Position numbers and translations under genes: made by a program. This document shows positions 23,506-61,074 of a stretch of DNA of 63,182 bases, one piece after another (position 1 is the first letter of the stretch; every line of letters begins with the position of its first letter). The notes under the pieces are model-generated. The model made no database searches. It worked only from the letters and a program-made list of their open reading frames with translations, and had not been told where the DNA came from. The stretch comes from an uncultured Candidatus Saccharibacteria bacterium (GTDB lineage: Bacteria; Patescibacteriota; UBA1384; DATEAH01; CAYPSR01): the NCBI GenBank assembly GCA_964413595.1, contig CAYPSR010000001.1, forward strand, positions 1 to 63,182. The letters are read 5' to 3'.

Positions 23506-23607
23506 TTGTCATTCCCGATTTAGTCGGGAATCCCTGCCTACCGGCAGGCAAGATAGAATCTATCATATAGATTCCGGATAGCCACCTTCGGCGTTCCGGA
23601 ATGACAA
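23506..23607. repeat. MITE-like hairpin repeat, family A (full copy)
   Basis: ttgtcattcccgatttagtcgggaatccc...aagatagaatctatcatatagattccggatagccaccttcggcgttccggaatgacaa. Confidence 0.8.
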
Positions 23608-35245: not shown

Positions 35246-35275
35246 TTGACAATATATTAAAAACTAATATATAAT
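35246..35275 (+). promoter_or_regulatory. promoter TTGACA-18-TATAAT with an 8-5-8 inverted repeat ATATATTA-AAAAC-TAATATAT (35252-35272) in the spacer
   Basis: Read directly. 36 nt upstream of the LexA-Dcm ATG. Confidence 0.5.
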
Positions 35276-35310
35276 TGAATTATAATAGAAAATAAATAGA
35301 AGGTCGCTCC

Positions 35311-36888
35311 ATGCTCACTAAAAAACAAAAAAAGGTATTTGATTACATTCAAAGCTACATAAATAAGATGAAATATGCCCCCTCACTTGAAGAAATAAAA
35401 AAACATTTTAGTTTTTCCTCTGTTTCAACCGCATATCATCATGTTAAAAAACTTCAAACTGCTGGATATCTTAGAAAACAATTTAATCAACCTCGATCAG
35501 TCGAAGCTTTTTCTCACAAAGATACTATGCCAGTTCCCCTAATTGGGACAATTACTGCCGGACAGCCGATTGAAGCGGTTGAAAATTATGAAGATACACT
35601 TTTAATTGAAAATAATAACTCTTACAATCCAAAAAATATTTATGCACTTAAAGTATCTGGGGACAGCATGATAGATGAAGGCATTTTTGACGGTGATATT
35701 GTAGTGATAAAAAAGCAATCGGTCGCAGAAAATGGACAAACAGTAGTAGCAATTATTGACGAAAACCAAGCAACACTAAAAAAATTCTATCAAGAAAAGA
35801 ACAGGGTTAGACTTGAGCCAAGGAATCAATTATTATTGCCCTTTTATAGAAAAGAGATCGAAATTCGAGGTGTAGTAATTCAGATAATAAGAAATATGGG
35901 CGATGGTGAAAAGAATAAAAAAACAACTCAGCCCCAAAAAATATTTAAAACCATTGATCTATTCGCAGGAATAGGCGGGATAAGACTTGGGTTTGAAAAA
36001 GCAGGATTTAAAACAGTGTTCGCAAATGATTTTGAATCAAAATGTAAAGAAACATATGATGAAAATTTTCAAGATTCAAAATTAATAGTCGAGGATATTA
36101 GAAAAATTGGAATAGGCGATATCCCTGATTTTGATTTTTTACTTGGCGGTTTTCCTTGCCAGGCTTTTTCTATCGCCGGTCATCAACAAGGATTTAATGA
36201 CAAAAAAGGACGAGGCAATTTGTTTTTTGATATCGCAAAAATTATTCAGGCTCGAAAACCTGAGGGTTTTTTACTTGAAAATGTAAAAAATCTTAAAAAC
36301 CACGATCATGGAAAAACATTTCGTATCATTATCGAAACACTCAAAGACCTTGGTTATTATGTTAAATCACAGGTGTTAAATAGTATGGATTATGGTAATA
36401 TTCCTCAAAATAGAGAAAGAATTTATATTGTAGGATTTAAAAACAAGAGTGCAATTGAAAAATTCAATTTTCCAAAACCAATACCGCTCAACAAAACGAT
36501 TGGTGATATTTTAGAAACTGAAGTTGATGAGAAATATTATTACAATAACAAACCATTATATGACAAAATAAAAGACCACATAAAAAATAAAAATACAGTT
36601 TATCAATGGCGAAGGCAATATGTCAGAGAAAACAAAAAAGGAGTTTGCCCCACGCTTACTGCAAATATGGGCACAGGAGGACATAATGTTCCAATAATTA
36701 AAGACGAAAAGGGAATACGCAAGCTTACACCTTTAGAATGCACAAGAGTACAAGGTTTTCCGAAAAGTTATAAATTACCAAATCTAGCTGATTCTGTATT
36801 ATATAAACAAATAGGCAACTCGGTGAGTGTGCCAGTGATAGAACGAATAGCTAATAACATTCACTTGACTCTCTCGTTAAACCCCTGA
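35311..36888 (+). CDS. LexA (wHTH + S24 self-cleaving peptidase) fused to a C5-cytosine DNA methyltransferase
   Basis: LexA part: 'ITAGQPIEA' (Ala83-Gly84), 'VSGDSM' (Ser119), 'ATLKKF' (Lys157). MTase part: 'DLFAGIGG', 'GGFPCQAFS', 'LLENVKNL', 'QNRERIYIVG', 'GNSVSVPV'. One uninterrupted 525-codon frame. Confidence 0.85.
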   Translation: MLTKKQKKVFDYIQSYINKMKYAPSLEEIKKHFSFSSVSTAYHHVKKLQTAGYLRKQFNQPRSVEAFSHKDTMPVPLIGTITAGQPIEAVENYEDTLLIENNNSYNPKNIYALKVSGDSMIDEGIFDGDIVVIKKQSVAENGQTVVAIIDENQATLKKFYQEKNRVRLEPRNQLLLPFYRKEIEIRGVVIQIIRNMGDGEKNKKTTQPQKIFKTIDLFAGIGGIRLGFEKAGFKTVFANDFESKCKETYDENFQDSKLIVEDIRKIGIGDIPDFDFLLGGFPCQAFSIAGHQQGFNDKKGRGNLFFDIAKIIQARKPEGFLLENVKNLKNHDHGKTFRIIIETLKDLGYYVKSQVLNSMDYGNIPQNRERIYIVGFKNKSAIEKFNFPKPIPLNKTIGDILETEVDEKYYYNNKPLYDKIKDHIKNKNTVYQWRRQYVRENKKGVCPTLTANMGTGGHNVPIIKDEKGIRKLTPLECTRVQGFPKSYKLPNLADSVLYKQIGNSVSVPVIERIANNIHLTLSLNP

Positions 36889-37338
36889 CATTTTTTTTAA
36901 TATCTCCCAATTTTCTTTATATTCTTGCAATTGGCTAAGATTTTTTGTGTTTGCCATATCTTTAATATCATCAATAGGTATAATATAGCACTCACCCGAT
37001 CTGCCATCAACAATTAGAATAATGTCGCAATCTTTAGATGTATATTTATATGTTCTCTGCGCAACTTCTCGACTAATTTGCCTTCCACTTCTACCGCCTC
37101 CGATAAAACTCACTGACCCAGTCGAAGTTCCTTTTATCTGAACACGTAATAATCTATTGTTGCCAACATCTATGATAGCATCATACCTACCATTCGTAAC
37201 GTCAGCCCTAGAACAAGGGAATCCTGCTTTCATACAACGCCCAACACCTATCATTTCGTCTGAATTTCCGTTAATTGTTCTGAAAATTCCCTCACTAAAT
37301 CCAGTTAAATTCTTTGACCATTCTTTTTTATTTTTCAT
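36877..37338 (-). CDS. small PD-(D/E)xK-type nuclease, candidate restriction endonuclease partner
   Basis: 'RYDAIIDVGNNRLLRVQIKGT' (D...Q-x-K) and 'DCDIILIVD...CYIIP'. Its 3' end overlaps the MTase 3' end by 12 nt. Confidence 0.55.
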   Translation of the reverse strand: MKNKKEWSKNLTGFSEGIFRTINGNSDEMIGVGRCMKAGFPCSRADVTNGRYDAIIDVGNNRLLRVQIKGTSTGSVSFIGGGRSGRQISREVAQRTYKYTSKDCDIILIVDGRSGECYIIPIDDIKDMANTKNLSQLQEYKENWEILKKMSGV

Positions 37339-37435
37339 TATTTAGTCTTATTTTTTATTTTATTATACCACACATTACACATAATTTTAATTATTATCTC
37401 AAAAGAAACCTAAAAGCAATTTTTGGAATACCATT

Positions 37436-37479
37436 TATATAGATTCCGGATAGCCATCTTCGATGTTCCGGGATGACAG
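37436..37479. repeat. family A repeat, right half only
   Basis: tatatagattccggatagccatcttcgatgttccgggatgacag. Confidence 0.7.
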
Positions 37480-38679: not shown

Positions 38680-39057
38680 TTATTTAAGATTTAATATTCT
38701 TTTATATCTTACTTTATTTTTTGTAAAATTTGCTAATATACCTAACTTTAAATTTTTACTTATAAGATATTCATAAACTTGTTTTATATCTTGAGGCTTA
38801 AATATTTCACCTCTCTTTATTTCTAATACTACTTTATTCTCAATTAAGAAATCTAAATAGATTTTTCCGATAAGTTTTTCTTTATAATATATTGGGTGAT
38901 ATAATTCAGATTCAAATTTTATCTTTTTGTCTTCTAATTCAACCCCAATGGCTTTGTGATAAAAACTTTCCCGATGCCCACCACCTATTTGGTTAAAAAC
39001 ATTATATAAAACTCCAACTATTTTAAAACATAATTTTTTATAAATCAATTTAGTCAT
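38680..39057 (-). CDS. GxxExxY (PD-(D/E)xK_3, rRNA-IVS-associated type) protein
   Basis: 'GGGHRESFYHKAIGVELEDKKIKFESE'; 125 aa. Confidence 0.8.
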   Translation of the reverse strand: MTKLIYKKLCFKIVGVLYNVFNQIGGGHRESFYHKAIGVELEDKKIKFESELYHPIYYKEKLIGKIYLDFLIENKVVLEIKRGEIFKPQDIKQVYEYLISKNLKLGILANFTKNKVRYKRILNLK

Positions 39058-45948: not shown

Positions 45949-45989
45949 TTATCCACAGGTTGCCCCACTTATCCCCACTTTTATCCACA
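45949..45989 (-). promoter_or_regulatory. four direct GTGG(G/A) repeats at 10-10-12 nt spacing (candidate MraZ operator); two of them are perfect DnaA boxes TTATCCACA
   Basis: Plus strand: ttatccaca (45949-57), ccccac within 45960-68, ttatcccca (45969-77), ttatccaca (45981-89). Lies 100-140 nt upstream of the mraZ ATG. Confidence 0.55.
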
Positions 45990-61002: not shown

Positions 61003-61074
61003 CTTGTCATTCCGGAATTTCAAAGAAATATCCGGAATCTATATAATAGTTCTCGATTTCGCTCGAACAATAAT
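61003..61074. repeat. composite repeat: family A left hairpin + family B right half
   Basis: cttgtcattccggaatttcaaagaaatatccggaatc...atagttctcgatttcgctcgaacaata. Confidence 0.7.

What the first reader, a model, noticed from the sequence alone, without database searches (positions are those of the whole stretch)
35246..37338. Complete LexA fused in frame to a Dcm methyltransferase, convergent with a mini PD-(D/E)xK nuclease: a possible DNA-damage-wired restriction-modification module
ORF 35311..36888 is one uninterrupted 525-codon frame. Residues 1 to about 197 carry every LexA hallmark: a winged-HTH N-terminus, the cleavage loop 'GTITAGQPIEA' (Ala83-Gly84), 'VSGDSM' (Ser119 nucleophile) and 'ATLKKF' (Lys157 base). 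This part ends 'RGVVIQIIRNM', as free-standing LexA does. After a short Gly/Lys linker come all C5-MTase motifs: I 'DLFAGIGG', IV 'GGFPCQAFS', VI 'ENVKNL', VIII 'QNRERIYIVG', X 'GNSVSVPV'. A 153-aa ORF with a D...QxK nuclease signature overlaps its 3' end by 12 nt. A TTGACA-18-TATAAT promoter carries an 8-5-8 inverted repeat exactly in the spacer, which would be a candidate autoregulatory operator. The 2.3-kb module interrupts the dcw cluster between the LCP-murB genes and murG, and a half MITE sits at its right edge. HTH-fused methyltransferases that autoregulate are known. A full self-cleaving LexA as the N-terminal domain would instead make methylation or R-M expression respond to RecA filaments, for example after phage attack or self-restriction. 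I do not know of a described example.
Basis: partly seen in the sequence, partly recalled or inferred. Interest (0 to 1): 0.85.

Follow-up and report, generated by a model that had tools for sequence, protein, structure and literature searches.

The report
LexA-fused methyltransferase of a restriction-modification system
A restriction-modification system in a tiny-genome (Patescibacteria) bacterium makes its protective DNA methyltransferase as one protein with a complete LexA DNA-damage sensor, and this design recurs in hundreds of related systems, which suggests that self-protection against restriction is wired to the SOS signal.

Summary
ORF 35311-36888 is one 525-codon frame encoding a full LexA joined by a variable linker to a C5 DNA methyltransferase. 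Its 3' end overlaps a convergent 153-aa PD-(D/E)xK nuclease gene by 12 nt.

It is not unique. At least 120 protein clusters from independent Patescibacteria assemblies have the same architecture. Close LexA modules are also fused to at least four other DNA methyltransferase families. In almost every locus a restriction-endonuclease gene abuts the fusion tail-to-tail (Bsp6I-, NgoFVII- or MvaI/BcnI-type, among others), so this is the M subunit of a Type II R-M system, probably GCNGC-specific.

The 8-5-8 palindrome is unremarkable and not conserved. The conserved operator is a direct repeat at 35284-35305, just downstream of the -10 box. Its half-site co-varies with the recognition helix across about 90 loci.

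The Ala-Gly cleavage site and the Ser and Lys catalytic residues are invariant in all fusions examined.

Proposed mechanism: autorepression of M, with RecA*-triggered self-cleavage giving a burst of M and, through convergent transcription, less R. This would be restriction alleviation for Type II systems. The architecture and operator are shown. The damage response and its direction are inferred.

I found no published description. I rate it a new variant of the known regulatory methyltransferases.

The parts
35246..35275 (+). Promoter of the fusion gene: -35 TTGACA (35246-35251), 18-nt spacer, -10 TATAAT (35270-35275).
   Evidence: 12 of 12 consensus match. It is homologous at the DNA level to promoters of LexA-MTase genes of other MTase classes.
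35252..35272 (.). Probably not the operator.
   Evidence: It is present. However, 14% of shuffles have one, there are 52 in the window, and the spacer is not conserved in relatives. It scores below threshold with the operator PWM.
35284..35305 (+). Conserved LexA-type operator AATAGAAAATAAATAGAAGGTC. It is a direct repeat TAGAAA-N5-TAGAAG with period 11, at about +2 to +23 relative to the predicted transcription start.
   Evidence: PWM score 27.4, against 13.6 for the next best site in the window and 18.7 for the best of 30 shuffles. The same element lies at the same place in 33 loci with the same recognition helix. The half-site co-varies with the helix.
35311..36888 (+). LexA-C5 methyltransferase fusion gene (525 aa), the M subunit of the R-M system.
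   Evidence: PADLOC Type II MTase model PDLC03272 scores 426 bits.
35314..35496 (+). LexA winged-HTH DNA-binding domain (residues 2-62). Recognition helix: SVSTAYHHVKKL.
   Evidence: Pfam PF01726, 8.4e-15. Alignment to 3k2z.
35536..35880 (+). S24 self-cleaving and dimerisation domain (residues 76-190). Cleavage bond A83-G84 (35557-35562), Ser119 (35665-35667), Lys157 (35779-35781).
   Evidence: Pfam PF00717, 8.2e-28. These residues are invariant in alignment A1 (31 sequences) and A2 (43 fusions to five MTase families).
35899..35943 (+). Variable Gly/Lys/Glu-rich linker (residues 197-211).
   Evidence: Not conserved in sequence or length in alignment A1. pLDDT below 50 in the model (the model is of low confidence overall).
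35944..36861 (+). C5 cytosine DNA methyltransferase domain (residues 212-517), with catalytic Cys283 at 36157-36159. Predicted GCNGC-type specificity.
   Evidence: Pfam PF00145, 1.5e-97. Closest solved structure is M.HhaI, 219 bits. The target-recognition region is invariant while partner REases of the Bsp6I (GCNGC) and NgoFVII (GCSGC) families are swapped.
36877..37338 (-). 153-aa PD-(D/E)xK nuclease, the putative restriction endonuclease. Predicted catalytic residues: E27, D52, Q66, K68.
   Evidence: Pfam PDDEXK_5, 2.6e-7. 521 homologues. These residues are invariant. Foldseek top match I-Ssp6803I (2ost), E 7e-8, TM 0.72. It also lies next to free-standing orthologous MTases in L041, L046, L047, L068 and L079.
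36877..36888 (.). 12-nt tail-to-tail overlap of the two genes, leaving no room for a terminator.
   Evidence: Read from the sequence. No terminator-like site lies nearby. The same abutment (-23 to +10 nt) occurs in 36 of 37 C5 loci. The gap is -4 or -8 nt in 35 of the 38 SPPY-type loci where a downstream gene was found (317 nt in the other three).
37362..37390 (-). Promoter-like site of the nuclease gene: TTAAAA-17-TATAAT with an upstream TG.
   Evidence: 10 of 12 matches. No LexA-type operator is present here.

Best explanation
The 2.1-kb module is a Type II restriction-modification system inserted in the dcw cluster of a Patescibacteria genome. Its methyltransferase, probably GCNGC-specific and forming 5mC, is made as one polypeptide with a complete LexA.

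Step 1 (supported by comparative data). The LexA winged helix binds the direct repeat at 35284-35305, just downstream of the -10 box. This represses the fusion's own promoter and keeps M low at steady state.

Step 2 (inferred from invariant residues). Activated RecA filaments form when the chromosome suffers breaks or gaps, including breaks made by the system's own nuclease at unmethylated sites. They stimulate cleavage at Ala83-Gly84. The DNA-binding domain is then separated from the dimeric S24-MTase part, and the promoter is derepressed.

Step 3 (inferred from gene geometry). The two genes overlap tail-to-tail with no terminator. A burst of M transcription therefore runs antisense through the nuclease gene and should lower R. 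The net effect is more methylation and less restriction while DNA is being repaired. This would be a built-in restriction alleviation for a Type II system.

The same circuit gives M-before-R timing when the module enters a new cell, because no repressor is present at first.
For: - Architecture.
- Membership in an R-M system. At least 7 unrelated convergent partner genes sit next to one conserved fusion, including RE_Bsp6I (4.7e-18) and NgoFVII_C (1.9e-15). The sister class fused to an N4/N6 MTase pairs with MvaI_BcnI (1.5e-42). PADLOC identifies a Type II MTase. C-protein-like genes precede R in many loci.
- Autoregulation. There is a single strong operator in 63 kb, placed at the fusion promoter. 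The helix class H[E/Q]H goes with TTCGG-N6-TTCGG in 22 of 22 loci. The class H[H/Y/F][H/Y] goes with TTC[T/G]A-N6-TTC[T/G]A in 61 of 68 (Fisher 5e-20, not corrected for phylogeny). There are 82 exact sites within 160 nt upstream of fusion genes and 14 elsewhere in 558 kb; 6 of those 14 in fact lie just upstream of fusion genes whose start codons I miscalled.
- Cleavage competence. Ala-Gly, Ser and Lys are invariant in 31 close homologues and in 43 diverse fusions.
- Tail-to-tail geometry is conserved across MTase classes.
- Direct-repeat LexA boxes are reported for several phyla, Patescibacteria among them (PMC7739468).
- DNA-damage-triggered restriction alleviation is established for Type I systems (PMC12707154).
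Against: - No experiment shows cleavage, DNA binding or methylation by any member.
- The direction of the response is uncertain. In E. coli, LexA cleavage fragments are degraded by ClpXP and Lon (my own knowledge). If the S24-MTase fragment were degraded too, methylation would fall.
- The window's own promoter spacer has lost the second operator copy that its closest relatives keep, so repression here could be weaker.
- No operator lies upstream of the nuclease gene, so any effect on R is indirect and unproven.
- Raising M after phage DNA has been cut could help the phage escape restriction.
- The GCNGC assignment rests on the partner families. GCNGC depletion in the window (z = -2.8) is no stronger than that of GGCC or GGNCC.
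Confidence: 0.6

Rival explanations
1. The LexA part is used only as a dimeric DNA-binding autorepressor, a built-in substitute for a C protein or for the N-terminal HTH of known regulatory methyltransferases. It is never cleaved physiologically, so there is no link to DNA damage.
For: Autoregulation is the only function with direct comparative support. Known regulatory MTases work with a plain HTH (PMC12707154). Many loci already carry a C protein for R.
Against: The cleavage-site Ala-Gly, the nucleophile Ser and the general base Lys are invariant in every fusion examined, across five MTase families. That is unexpected if cleavage were dispensable. The whole protein passes the lexA equivalog model.
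Confidence: 0.2
2. The fusion is the cell's main, or an additional global, SOS repressor that happens to carry a methyltransferase. Its primary role would be SOS regulation of repair genes, with cross-talk to the host LexA regulon.
For: Stand-alone LexA relatives (L165, L168) and a LexA-DpnI operon (L166) carry the same promoter-operator cassette, TTATCCACA + -35 + TTCGGT-N5-TTCGGT + -10. Fused and free LexA proteins with the same recognition-helix class should therefore recognise the same boxes. NCBI already names the fusions 'LexA'. No second lexA lies in the 63-kb contig.
Against: Genomic location varies: dcw context only here, a recombinase nearby in L081, Vsr in L084. A restriction-enzyme partner always abuts it. 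MTase partners are swapped. No further operator was found in the window or in 558 kb of flanks. No typical SOS gene lies in the window against which to test this.
Confidence: 0.12
3. Self-cleavage inactivates or destabilises the methyltransferase. DNA damage or phage-induced RecA* would then lead to under-methylation and lethal self-restriction, an abortive-infection or addiction-like suicide switch.
For: Cleavage exposes new termini, which in E. coli LexA are degradation signals (my own knowledge). Here the N-terminal fragment would end in ...ITA, and in ...IAA in most homologues. Type II R-M systems are known to kill cells when M falls (PMC11324026 abstract).
Against: Cleavage also derepresses the promoter, so synthesis rises. 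The MTase domain stays attached to an intact dimerisation domain and nothing in it is removed. Killing a cell whenever its DNA is damaged would be costly for an organism with a small genome.
Confidence: 0.08

Closest known systems
Regulatory methyltransferases of Type II R-M systems with an N-terminal HTH (M.SsoII, M.Ecl18kI, M.EcoRII, M.MspI, M.ScrFIA; names from my own knowledge, the class as described in PMC12707154)
   Same: The MTase is translationally fused to an N-terminal sequence-specific DNA-binding domain. That domain binds an operator at the MTase promoter and autorepresses it.
   Different: Here the N-terminal part is not a short HTH. It is a full LexA with a dimerising, self-cleaving S24 domain. 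The M and R genes are convergent rather than sharing a divergent promoter region, so the operator cannot act directly on the R promoter. The operator is a direct repeat.
LexA, the SOS repressor (TIGR00498; structures 1jhh, 3k2z)
   Same: Full-length match above the equivalog cut-off, with winged HTH, Ala-Gly site and Ser/Lys dyad. It is autoregulated through a box at its own promoter. The box is a direct repeat, as reported for LexA of several phyla, Patescibacteria among them (PMC7739468, citing Sanchez-Osuna 2017).
   Different: It carries a C-terminal DNA methyltransferase, sits in a mobile R-M module, and shows no sign of a regulon in the available flanks.
C (controller) proteins of R-M systems (C.PvuII, C.Esp1396I, C.Kpn2I)
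   Same: A dedicated transcription factor times M and R expression. C-like genes are present upstream of R in many sister loci. Convergent M versus C-R layouts exist (Esp1396I; my own knowledge).
   Different: C proteins are small XRE-type HTH proteins with no signal-sensing or proteolytic domain. The window's module has no C gene.
Restriction alleviation of Type I R-M systems after DNA damage (EcoKI, ClpXP-dependent)
   Same: The proposed outcome is the same: restriction is stood down when the chromosome is damaged or carries unmodified sites (PMC12707154; PMC11109961).
   Different: The mechanism is entirely different: proteolysis of HsdR versus derepression of an M gene by LexA self-cleavage. 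It has not been described for Type II systems in the sources I could search.
Bsp6I / Fnu4HI-type (GCNGC) and MvaI/BcnI-type R-M systems
   Same: The partner endonuclease families in sister loci are RE_Bsp6I, NgoFVII_C and MvaI_BcnI. The MTase is a standard C5 enzyme closest to M.HhaI.
   Different: The classical systems have free-standing MTases. The window's endonuclease belongs to a different family (I-Ssp6803I-like PDDEXK_5).

Membership tests
LexA (TIGR00498 / Peptidase S24 repressors) | N-terminal winged-HTH LexA DNA-binding domain | tested here: met
   PF01726, 8.4e-15, residues 2-62. Aligned to 3k2z and 1jhh.
LexA (TIGR00498 / Peptidase S24 repressors) | Full-length score above the curated equivalog cut-off | tested here: met
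   182.7 bits against a cut-off of 110.95, residues 2-196.
LexA (TIGR00498 / Peptidase S24 repressors) | Ala-Gly cleavage site and Ser/Lys catalytic dyad | tested here: met
   A83-G84, S119 and K157 are present and invariant in alignments A1 and A2.
LexA (TIGR00498 / Peptidase S24 repressors) | RecA*-stimulated or alkaline self-cleavage | not testable with these tools
   Requires biochemistry.
LexA (TIGR00498 / Peptidase S24 repressors) | Binds a box in its own promoter (autoregulation) | tested here: met
   Comparative evidence only. A unique high-scoring conserved site lies at 35284-35305, and half-site and helix co-vary.
LexA (TIGR00498 / Peptidase S24 repressors) | Controls a regulon of DNA-repair genes | tested here: inconclusive
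   No further site in 63 kb or in 558 kb of flanks. However, no recA, uvr or polymerase gene lies in the window.
C5 cytosine DNA methyltransferase (PF00145 / TIGR00675) | Motifs I, IV (PCQ with catalytic Cys), VI (ENV), VIII (QxRxR) and X (GNSV) in order | tested here: met
   PF00145, 1.5e-97 over the full profile. TIGR00675, 353 bits. Motif residues are invariant. M.HhaI aligns end to end.
Type II restriction-modification system | MTase gene adjacent to a gene for a sequence-specific endonuclease | tested here: met
   A PD-(D/E)xK nuclease overlaps tail-to-tail. Sister loci carry recognised RE families at the same position. The same nuclease family flanks free-standing orthologous MTases.
Type II restriction-modification system | Endonuclease and MTase share one recognition sequence, and methylation blocks cleavage | not testable with these tools
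   GCNGC is inferred from partner families only. Site depletion in the window is weak and not specific.
Regulatory (HTH-fused) methyltransferases | N-terminal DNA-binding domain fused to the MTase that represses the MTase promoter | tested here: met
   Fusion shown. Operator at the promoter supported by comparison. Repression itself was not measured.
Regulatory (HTH-fused) methyltransferases | The same operator lies between divergent M and R promoters and stimulates R | tested here: not met
   The genes are convergent and no operator lies near the R promoter.
PD-(D/E)xK nuclease, PDDEXK_5 / I-Ssp6803I-like | PD-(D/E)xK fold with conserved acidic residues and Lys | tested here: met
   PF11645, 31.2 bits (cut-off 26.1). 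E27, D52, Q66 and K68 are invariant. Foldseek match to 2ost, TM 0.72.
PD-(D/E)xK nuclease, PDDEXK_5 / I-Ssp6803I-like | Encoded within a group I intron (homing endonuclease) | tested here: not met
   It is a free-standing gene between the MTase gene and murG. There is no Rfam intron or other RNA family in the window.

The most novel reading that the evidence does not exclude
In Patescibacteria the LexA module, together with its promoter-operator cassette, has become a portable SOS-sensing controller of restriction systems. It is fused to at least five unrelated DNA methyltransferase families, and it heads an operon with a DpnI-type methyl-directed endonuclease. This would give Type II (and Type IIM/IV) restriction a RecA*-triggered switch: restriction alleviation, or inducible restriction. 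Until now such a switch has been known only as ClpXP proteolysis in Type I systems. A DnaA-box-like element next to many of these promoters may add coupling to replication.
Probability: 0.45. Interest if true: 0.85.

Novelty: new variant of a known kind. Interest (0 to 1): 0.75.

Why it matters
How Type II R-M systems avoid killing their own host is an old question. The risk arises when methylation lags, for example after entry into a new cell, after repair synthesis or after recombination. The known answers are C proteins, HTH-fused methyltransferases, promoter methylation and antisense RNAs.

A methyltransferase carrying a complete self-cleaving LexA would add a different principle: direct sensing of the damage signal (RecA filaments) by the protective enzyme itself. 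The class is large, modular and confined mainly to Patescibacteria. These organisms have minimal genomes and few regulators.

The hypothesis is cheap to test in E. coli with cleavage assays, gel shifts, reporter fusions and methylome reads. It also shows that hundreds of database entries named 'transcriptional repressor LexA' are R-M methyltransferases. That matters for reconstructions of the SOS regulon in these phyla.

Tried and rejected
- Assembly or frameshift artefact: rejected. The same 510-530 aa frame appears in at least 120 clusters from independent assemblies.
- An operator upstream of the nuclease gene. The TAGAAA-N5-TAGATT element I saw at about 37478 scores below threshold, and no such site recurs in other loci.
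- The nuclease as Vsr: no Vsr match. A true Vsr occurs elsewhere, in L084.
- The nuclease against PDB by sequence: nothing found. Only the fold search worked.
- PADLOC has no model for the nuclease.
- An AlphaFold model of the whole fusion had low confidence (mean pLDDT 61) and was not used.
- A second lexA in the window: none. Rfam families in the window: none. SOS genes in the window for testing a regulon: none found (radA only).
- Conserved dcw context: not conserved in other loci.
- Site avoidance as evidence for GCNGC: weak and not specific.
- Literature: six full-text searches found no description of natural LexA-MTase fusions. A 2025 R-M review does not mention LexA. The one paper most likely to bear on this could not be read: Sanchez-Osuna et al. 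2017, Environ Microbiol 19:3465.
Full report
**1. What is in the window**

ORF 35311..36888 (+) is a single 525-codon frame.

- Pfam places LexA_DNA_bind at residues 2-62, Peptidase_S24 at 76-190 and DNA_methylase at 212-517.
- NCBIfam scores residues 2-196 at 182.7 bits against the lexA equivalog model (cut-off 110.95). It scores the C-terminal part at 353 bits against dcm.
- The N-terminal 200 residues align end to end with solved LexA structures (3k2z at 115 bits; 1jhh).
- The C-terminal part aligns end to end with M.HhaI (219 bits).
- The convergent ORF 36877..37338 (-) overlaps the fusion by 12 nt. It weakly matches Pfam PDDEXK_5. It has 521 homologues in which E27, D52, Q66 and K68 never vary. 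Its AlphaFold model (pLDDT 73.8) matches the PD-(D/E)xK homing endonuclease I-Ssp6803I (E 7e-8, TM 0.72), followed by Hjc resolvases.
- The flanking genes are MurB and an LCP protein on one side and MurG, a PDDEXK_3 protein, FtsW, MraY, a Mur ligase and a PBP on the other.

**2. The fusion is real and common**

A search of 5.8 billion proteins returned at least 120 clusters at 66-74% identity. All are about 525 aa with the same three domains, and they come from many independent Patescibacteria assemblies. NCBI names them 'transcriptional repressor LexA'. JGI names them 'DNA (cytosine-5)-methyltransferase 1'.

In 31 aligned members the cleavage bond A83-G84, Ser119, Lys157 and all C5 motifs including the target-recognition region are invariant. 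The linker is variable.

In species-representative genomes, 26 loci carry the fusion (two of them cut by a contig end). Free-standing MTases 64-70% identical occur in Saccharibacteria, Dojkabacteria and DPANN archaea. MTases 49-58% identical occur in Streptococcus, Lactococcus and Campylobacterota.

**3. It is the M subunit of a restriction-modification system**

The dcw context is not conserved. What is conserved is a convergent gene whose stop codon abuts or overlaps that of the fusion. The gap is -23 to +10 nt in 36 of 37 C5 loci.

These partner genes fall into at least seven unrelated families:

- RE_Bsp6I: 16 loci, Pfam 4.7e-18. From my memory of the Pfam family description, Bsp6I cuts GCNGC.
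- A family with the NgoFVII C-terminal domain: 1.9e-15. NgoFVII recognises GCSGC (also from memory).
- The window's 153-aa family: 3 loci.
- Four families with no Pfam match.

One invariant MTase specificity paired with swapped, unrelated nucleases is the usual pattern of Type II systems. It points to GCNGC-type methylation.

The 153-aa nuclease also sits beside free-standing orthologous MTases in Arcobacter, Sulfurovum and an alphaproteobacterium. That supports it as a cognate endonuclease.

GCNGC is under-represented in the window (55 observed, 81 expected, z = -2.8). GGCC and GGNCC are depleted as well, so this is weak evidence.

**4. The design is modular**

A metagenome scan with the LexA part alone returned 80 loci at 56-63% identity.

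- About half of these encode about 620-aa proteins in which LexA is fused to an N4/N6 MTase with an SPPY motif. Others are fused to a beta-class DPPY MTase or to a Dam-like MTase. None of the 80 is a complete stand-alone LexA.
- The SPPY class is tail-to-tail with MvaI/BcnI-family endonucleases (1.5e-42). One locus pairs with a BsaWI-like enzyme. The overlap is 4 nt in nearly all of them.
- An exhaustive HMMER search of 1.84 billion representatives shows that the top ~55 relatives of the LexA part (at least about 44% identity) are mostly proteins of 430-890 aa. Stand-alone LexA of about 200 aa first appears among them at 48% identity and dominates the list below about 44%.
- All 43 long representatives examined carry LexA_DNA_bind plus Peptidase_S24 plus a DNA MTase: N6_N4_Mtase 30, Eco57I-type 7, D12 5, N6_Mtase 5, C5 2 (a protein can match more than one family). 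Ala-Gly, Ser and Lys are invariant in them.
- LexA-part identity to the window is 58-66% whatever the MTase class. The promoter-operator DNA of the window aligns by blastn with that of SPPY-class genes. The LexA module and its control region therefore behave as a cassette.

**5. The operator**

It exists. However, 14% of shuffles of the region contain one, the window has 52 such repeats, and the spacer is not conserved among relatives.

Comparison of 96 distinct upstream regions shows a direct repeat of period 11 instead.

- Proteins whose recognition helix reads ..ST[IV]H[E/Q]H.. have TTCGG-N6-TTCGG filling the 17-nt spacer (22 of 22).
- Proteins with ..STAH[H/Y/F][H/Y].. have TTC[T/G]A-N6-TTC[T/G]A (61 of 68). 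The seven exceptions are loci where I miscalled the start codon.
- Fisher's test gives p = 5e-20. It is not corrected for relatedness, but the pattern crosses MTase classes.

In the window's helix group the repeat lies downstream of the -10 box in the opposite orientation. A weight matrix from 16 distinct sites finds one strong site in the window, 35284-35305 (AATAGAAAATAAATAGAAGGTC), scoring 27.4. The next best site scores 13.6, and the best of 30 shuffles scores 18.7.

The closest relatives (L081, L082, L084) carry both a spacer copy and this downstream copy. In the window the spacer copy has decayed.

Exact operator matches number 82 within 160 nt upstream of fusion genes. There are 14 elsewhere in 558 kb, and six of those are in fact upstream sites. 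None recurs at the endonuclease promoters. The LexA part thus looks like an autoregulator of M only.

Direct-repeat LexA boxes are on record for several phyla, Patescibacteria among them (PMC7739468, citing Sanchez-Osuna 2017, which I could not read).

**6. Control of R**

The window's nuclease gene has its own promoter-like site (37390-37362) and no C gene. In many sister loci a gene for an XRE-type, C-protein-like HTH of about 75 aa ends at the ATG of R (L082). Those systems therefore read LexA-M → ← R-C.

Because M and R overlap without a terminator in almost all loci, transcription from the M promoter must run antisense into R. This is geometry, not measurement.

**7. Mechanism proposed**

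- At steady state, LexA-M represses its own promoter.
- On entry into a naive cell, the promoter is free. M is made first and convergent transcription holds R down.
- After DNA damage, RecA* stimulates cleavage at A83-G84. The promoter opens, M rises and R falls. This is restriction alleviation.

The first step has comparative support. The cleavage step rests on invariant catalytic residues. The outcome is inference.

The main uncertainties are whether the S24-MTase fragment is stable and whether cleavage happens at all in vivo.

Rivals, with my confidence in each: a plain autorepressor with no cleavage (0.2); a global SOS repressor with cross-talk (0.12); a suicide switch (0.08).

Cross-talk is plausible. 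A stand-alone LexA relative (L165) and a LexA-DpnI operon (L166/L167) carry the same TTATCCACA + -35 + TTCGGT repeat + -10 cassette.

**8. Comparison with known systems**

It works like the regulatory HTH-fused methyltransferases (PMC12707154). It fails one of their features, an operator shared by divergent M and R promoters. It adds a complete signal-sensing protease.

It passes every sequence test for LexA. Its regulon could not be assessed.

Damage-induced restriction alleviation is known for Type I systems and works by ClpXP proteolysis (PMC12707154; PMC11109961). I found no report of it for Type II systems, nor of natural LexA-MTase fusions, in six full-text searches.

**9. Verdict**

- Novelty: a new variant of a known kind. 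The window's copy is one member of a large, apparently undescribed class.
- Interest: 0.75.

Noticed in passing
L001-L024 and L085-L168, upstream of LexA-MTase and LexA genes (not at the window's own promoter): A DnaA-box-like 9-mer, TGTGGATAA / TTATCCACA, lies next to the -35 in 36 of 96 distinct upstream regions (56 of 96 with one mismatch). Its density is 2.5 per kb there and 0.02 per kb in the rest of the loci, and it is almost always in one orientation. It also occurs at stand-alone LexA promoters (L165, L166). This may indicate a second, replication-linked input.
   Followed up: partly
window 45949-45989: Three tandem DnaA-box-like 9-mers (TTATCCACA, TTATCCCCA, TTATCCACA) within 41 nt. 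This could be an origin or a dnaA-promoter-type cluster.
   Followed up: no
L166 1125-2551 and L167 743-2169: A stand-alone LexA (213 aa) is followed 15 nt later, on the same strand, by a DpnI-family methyl-directed restriction endonuclease. The pair lies behind the same LexA-box promoter. This suggests a LexA-controlled Type IIM/IV restriction operon.
   Followed up: partly
L086, L090, L095, L100, L011, L021, L082 and others, just upstream of the endonuclease gene: A gene for a C-protein-like XRE HTH of about 75 aa ends at the start codon of the restriction endonuclease gene in at least 17 of 32 MvaI/BcnI-type loci and in several C5 loci. These systems therefore carry two regulators, LexA-M and C. 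The window has no C gene.
   Followed up: partly
window 38680-39057 (-): A 125-aa PDDEXK_3 family gene (Pfam 1.6e-27) sits between murG and ftsW. It is a second small nuclease-fold insertion in the dcw cluster.
   Followed up: no
window 37437-37478 and 23565-23606: A 42-nt intergenic repeat (90% identical), with an 18-nt inverted fragment at 61029-61046. I saw no evidence of a mobile element.
   Followed up: partly
L084 235-651; L081 802-2394: In close relatives the fusion gene is flanked by a Vsr mismatch endonuclease gene (divergent, L084) or lies near a large serine recombinase gene (L081). This fits 5mC methylation and mobility of the module.
   Followed up: no
window 35845-35866 (+): A weak operator-like match (TATAGAAAAGAGATCGAAATTC, score 13.0) lies inside the fusion ORF, at the codons for YRKEIEIR. 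It scores below the shuffle maximum and probably reflects coding constraint.
   Followed up: no
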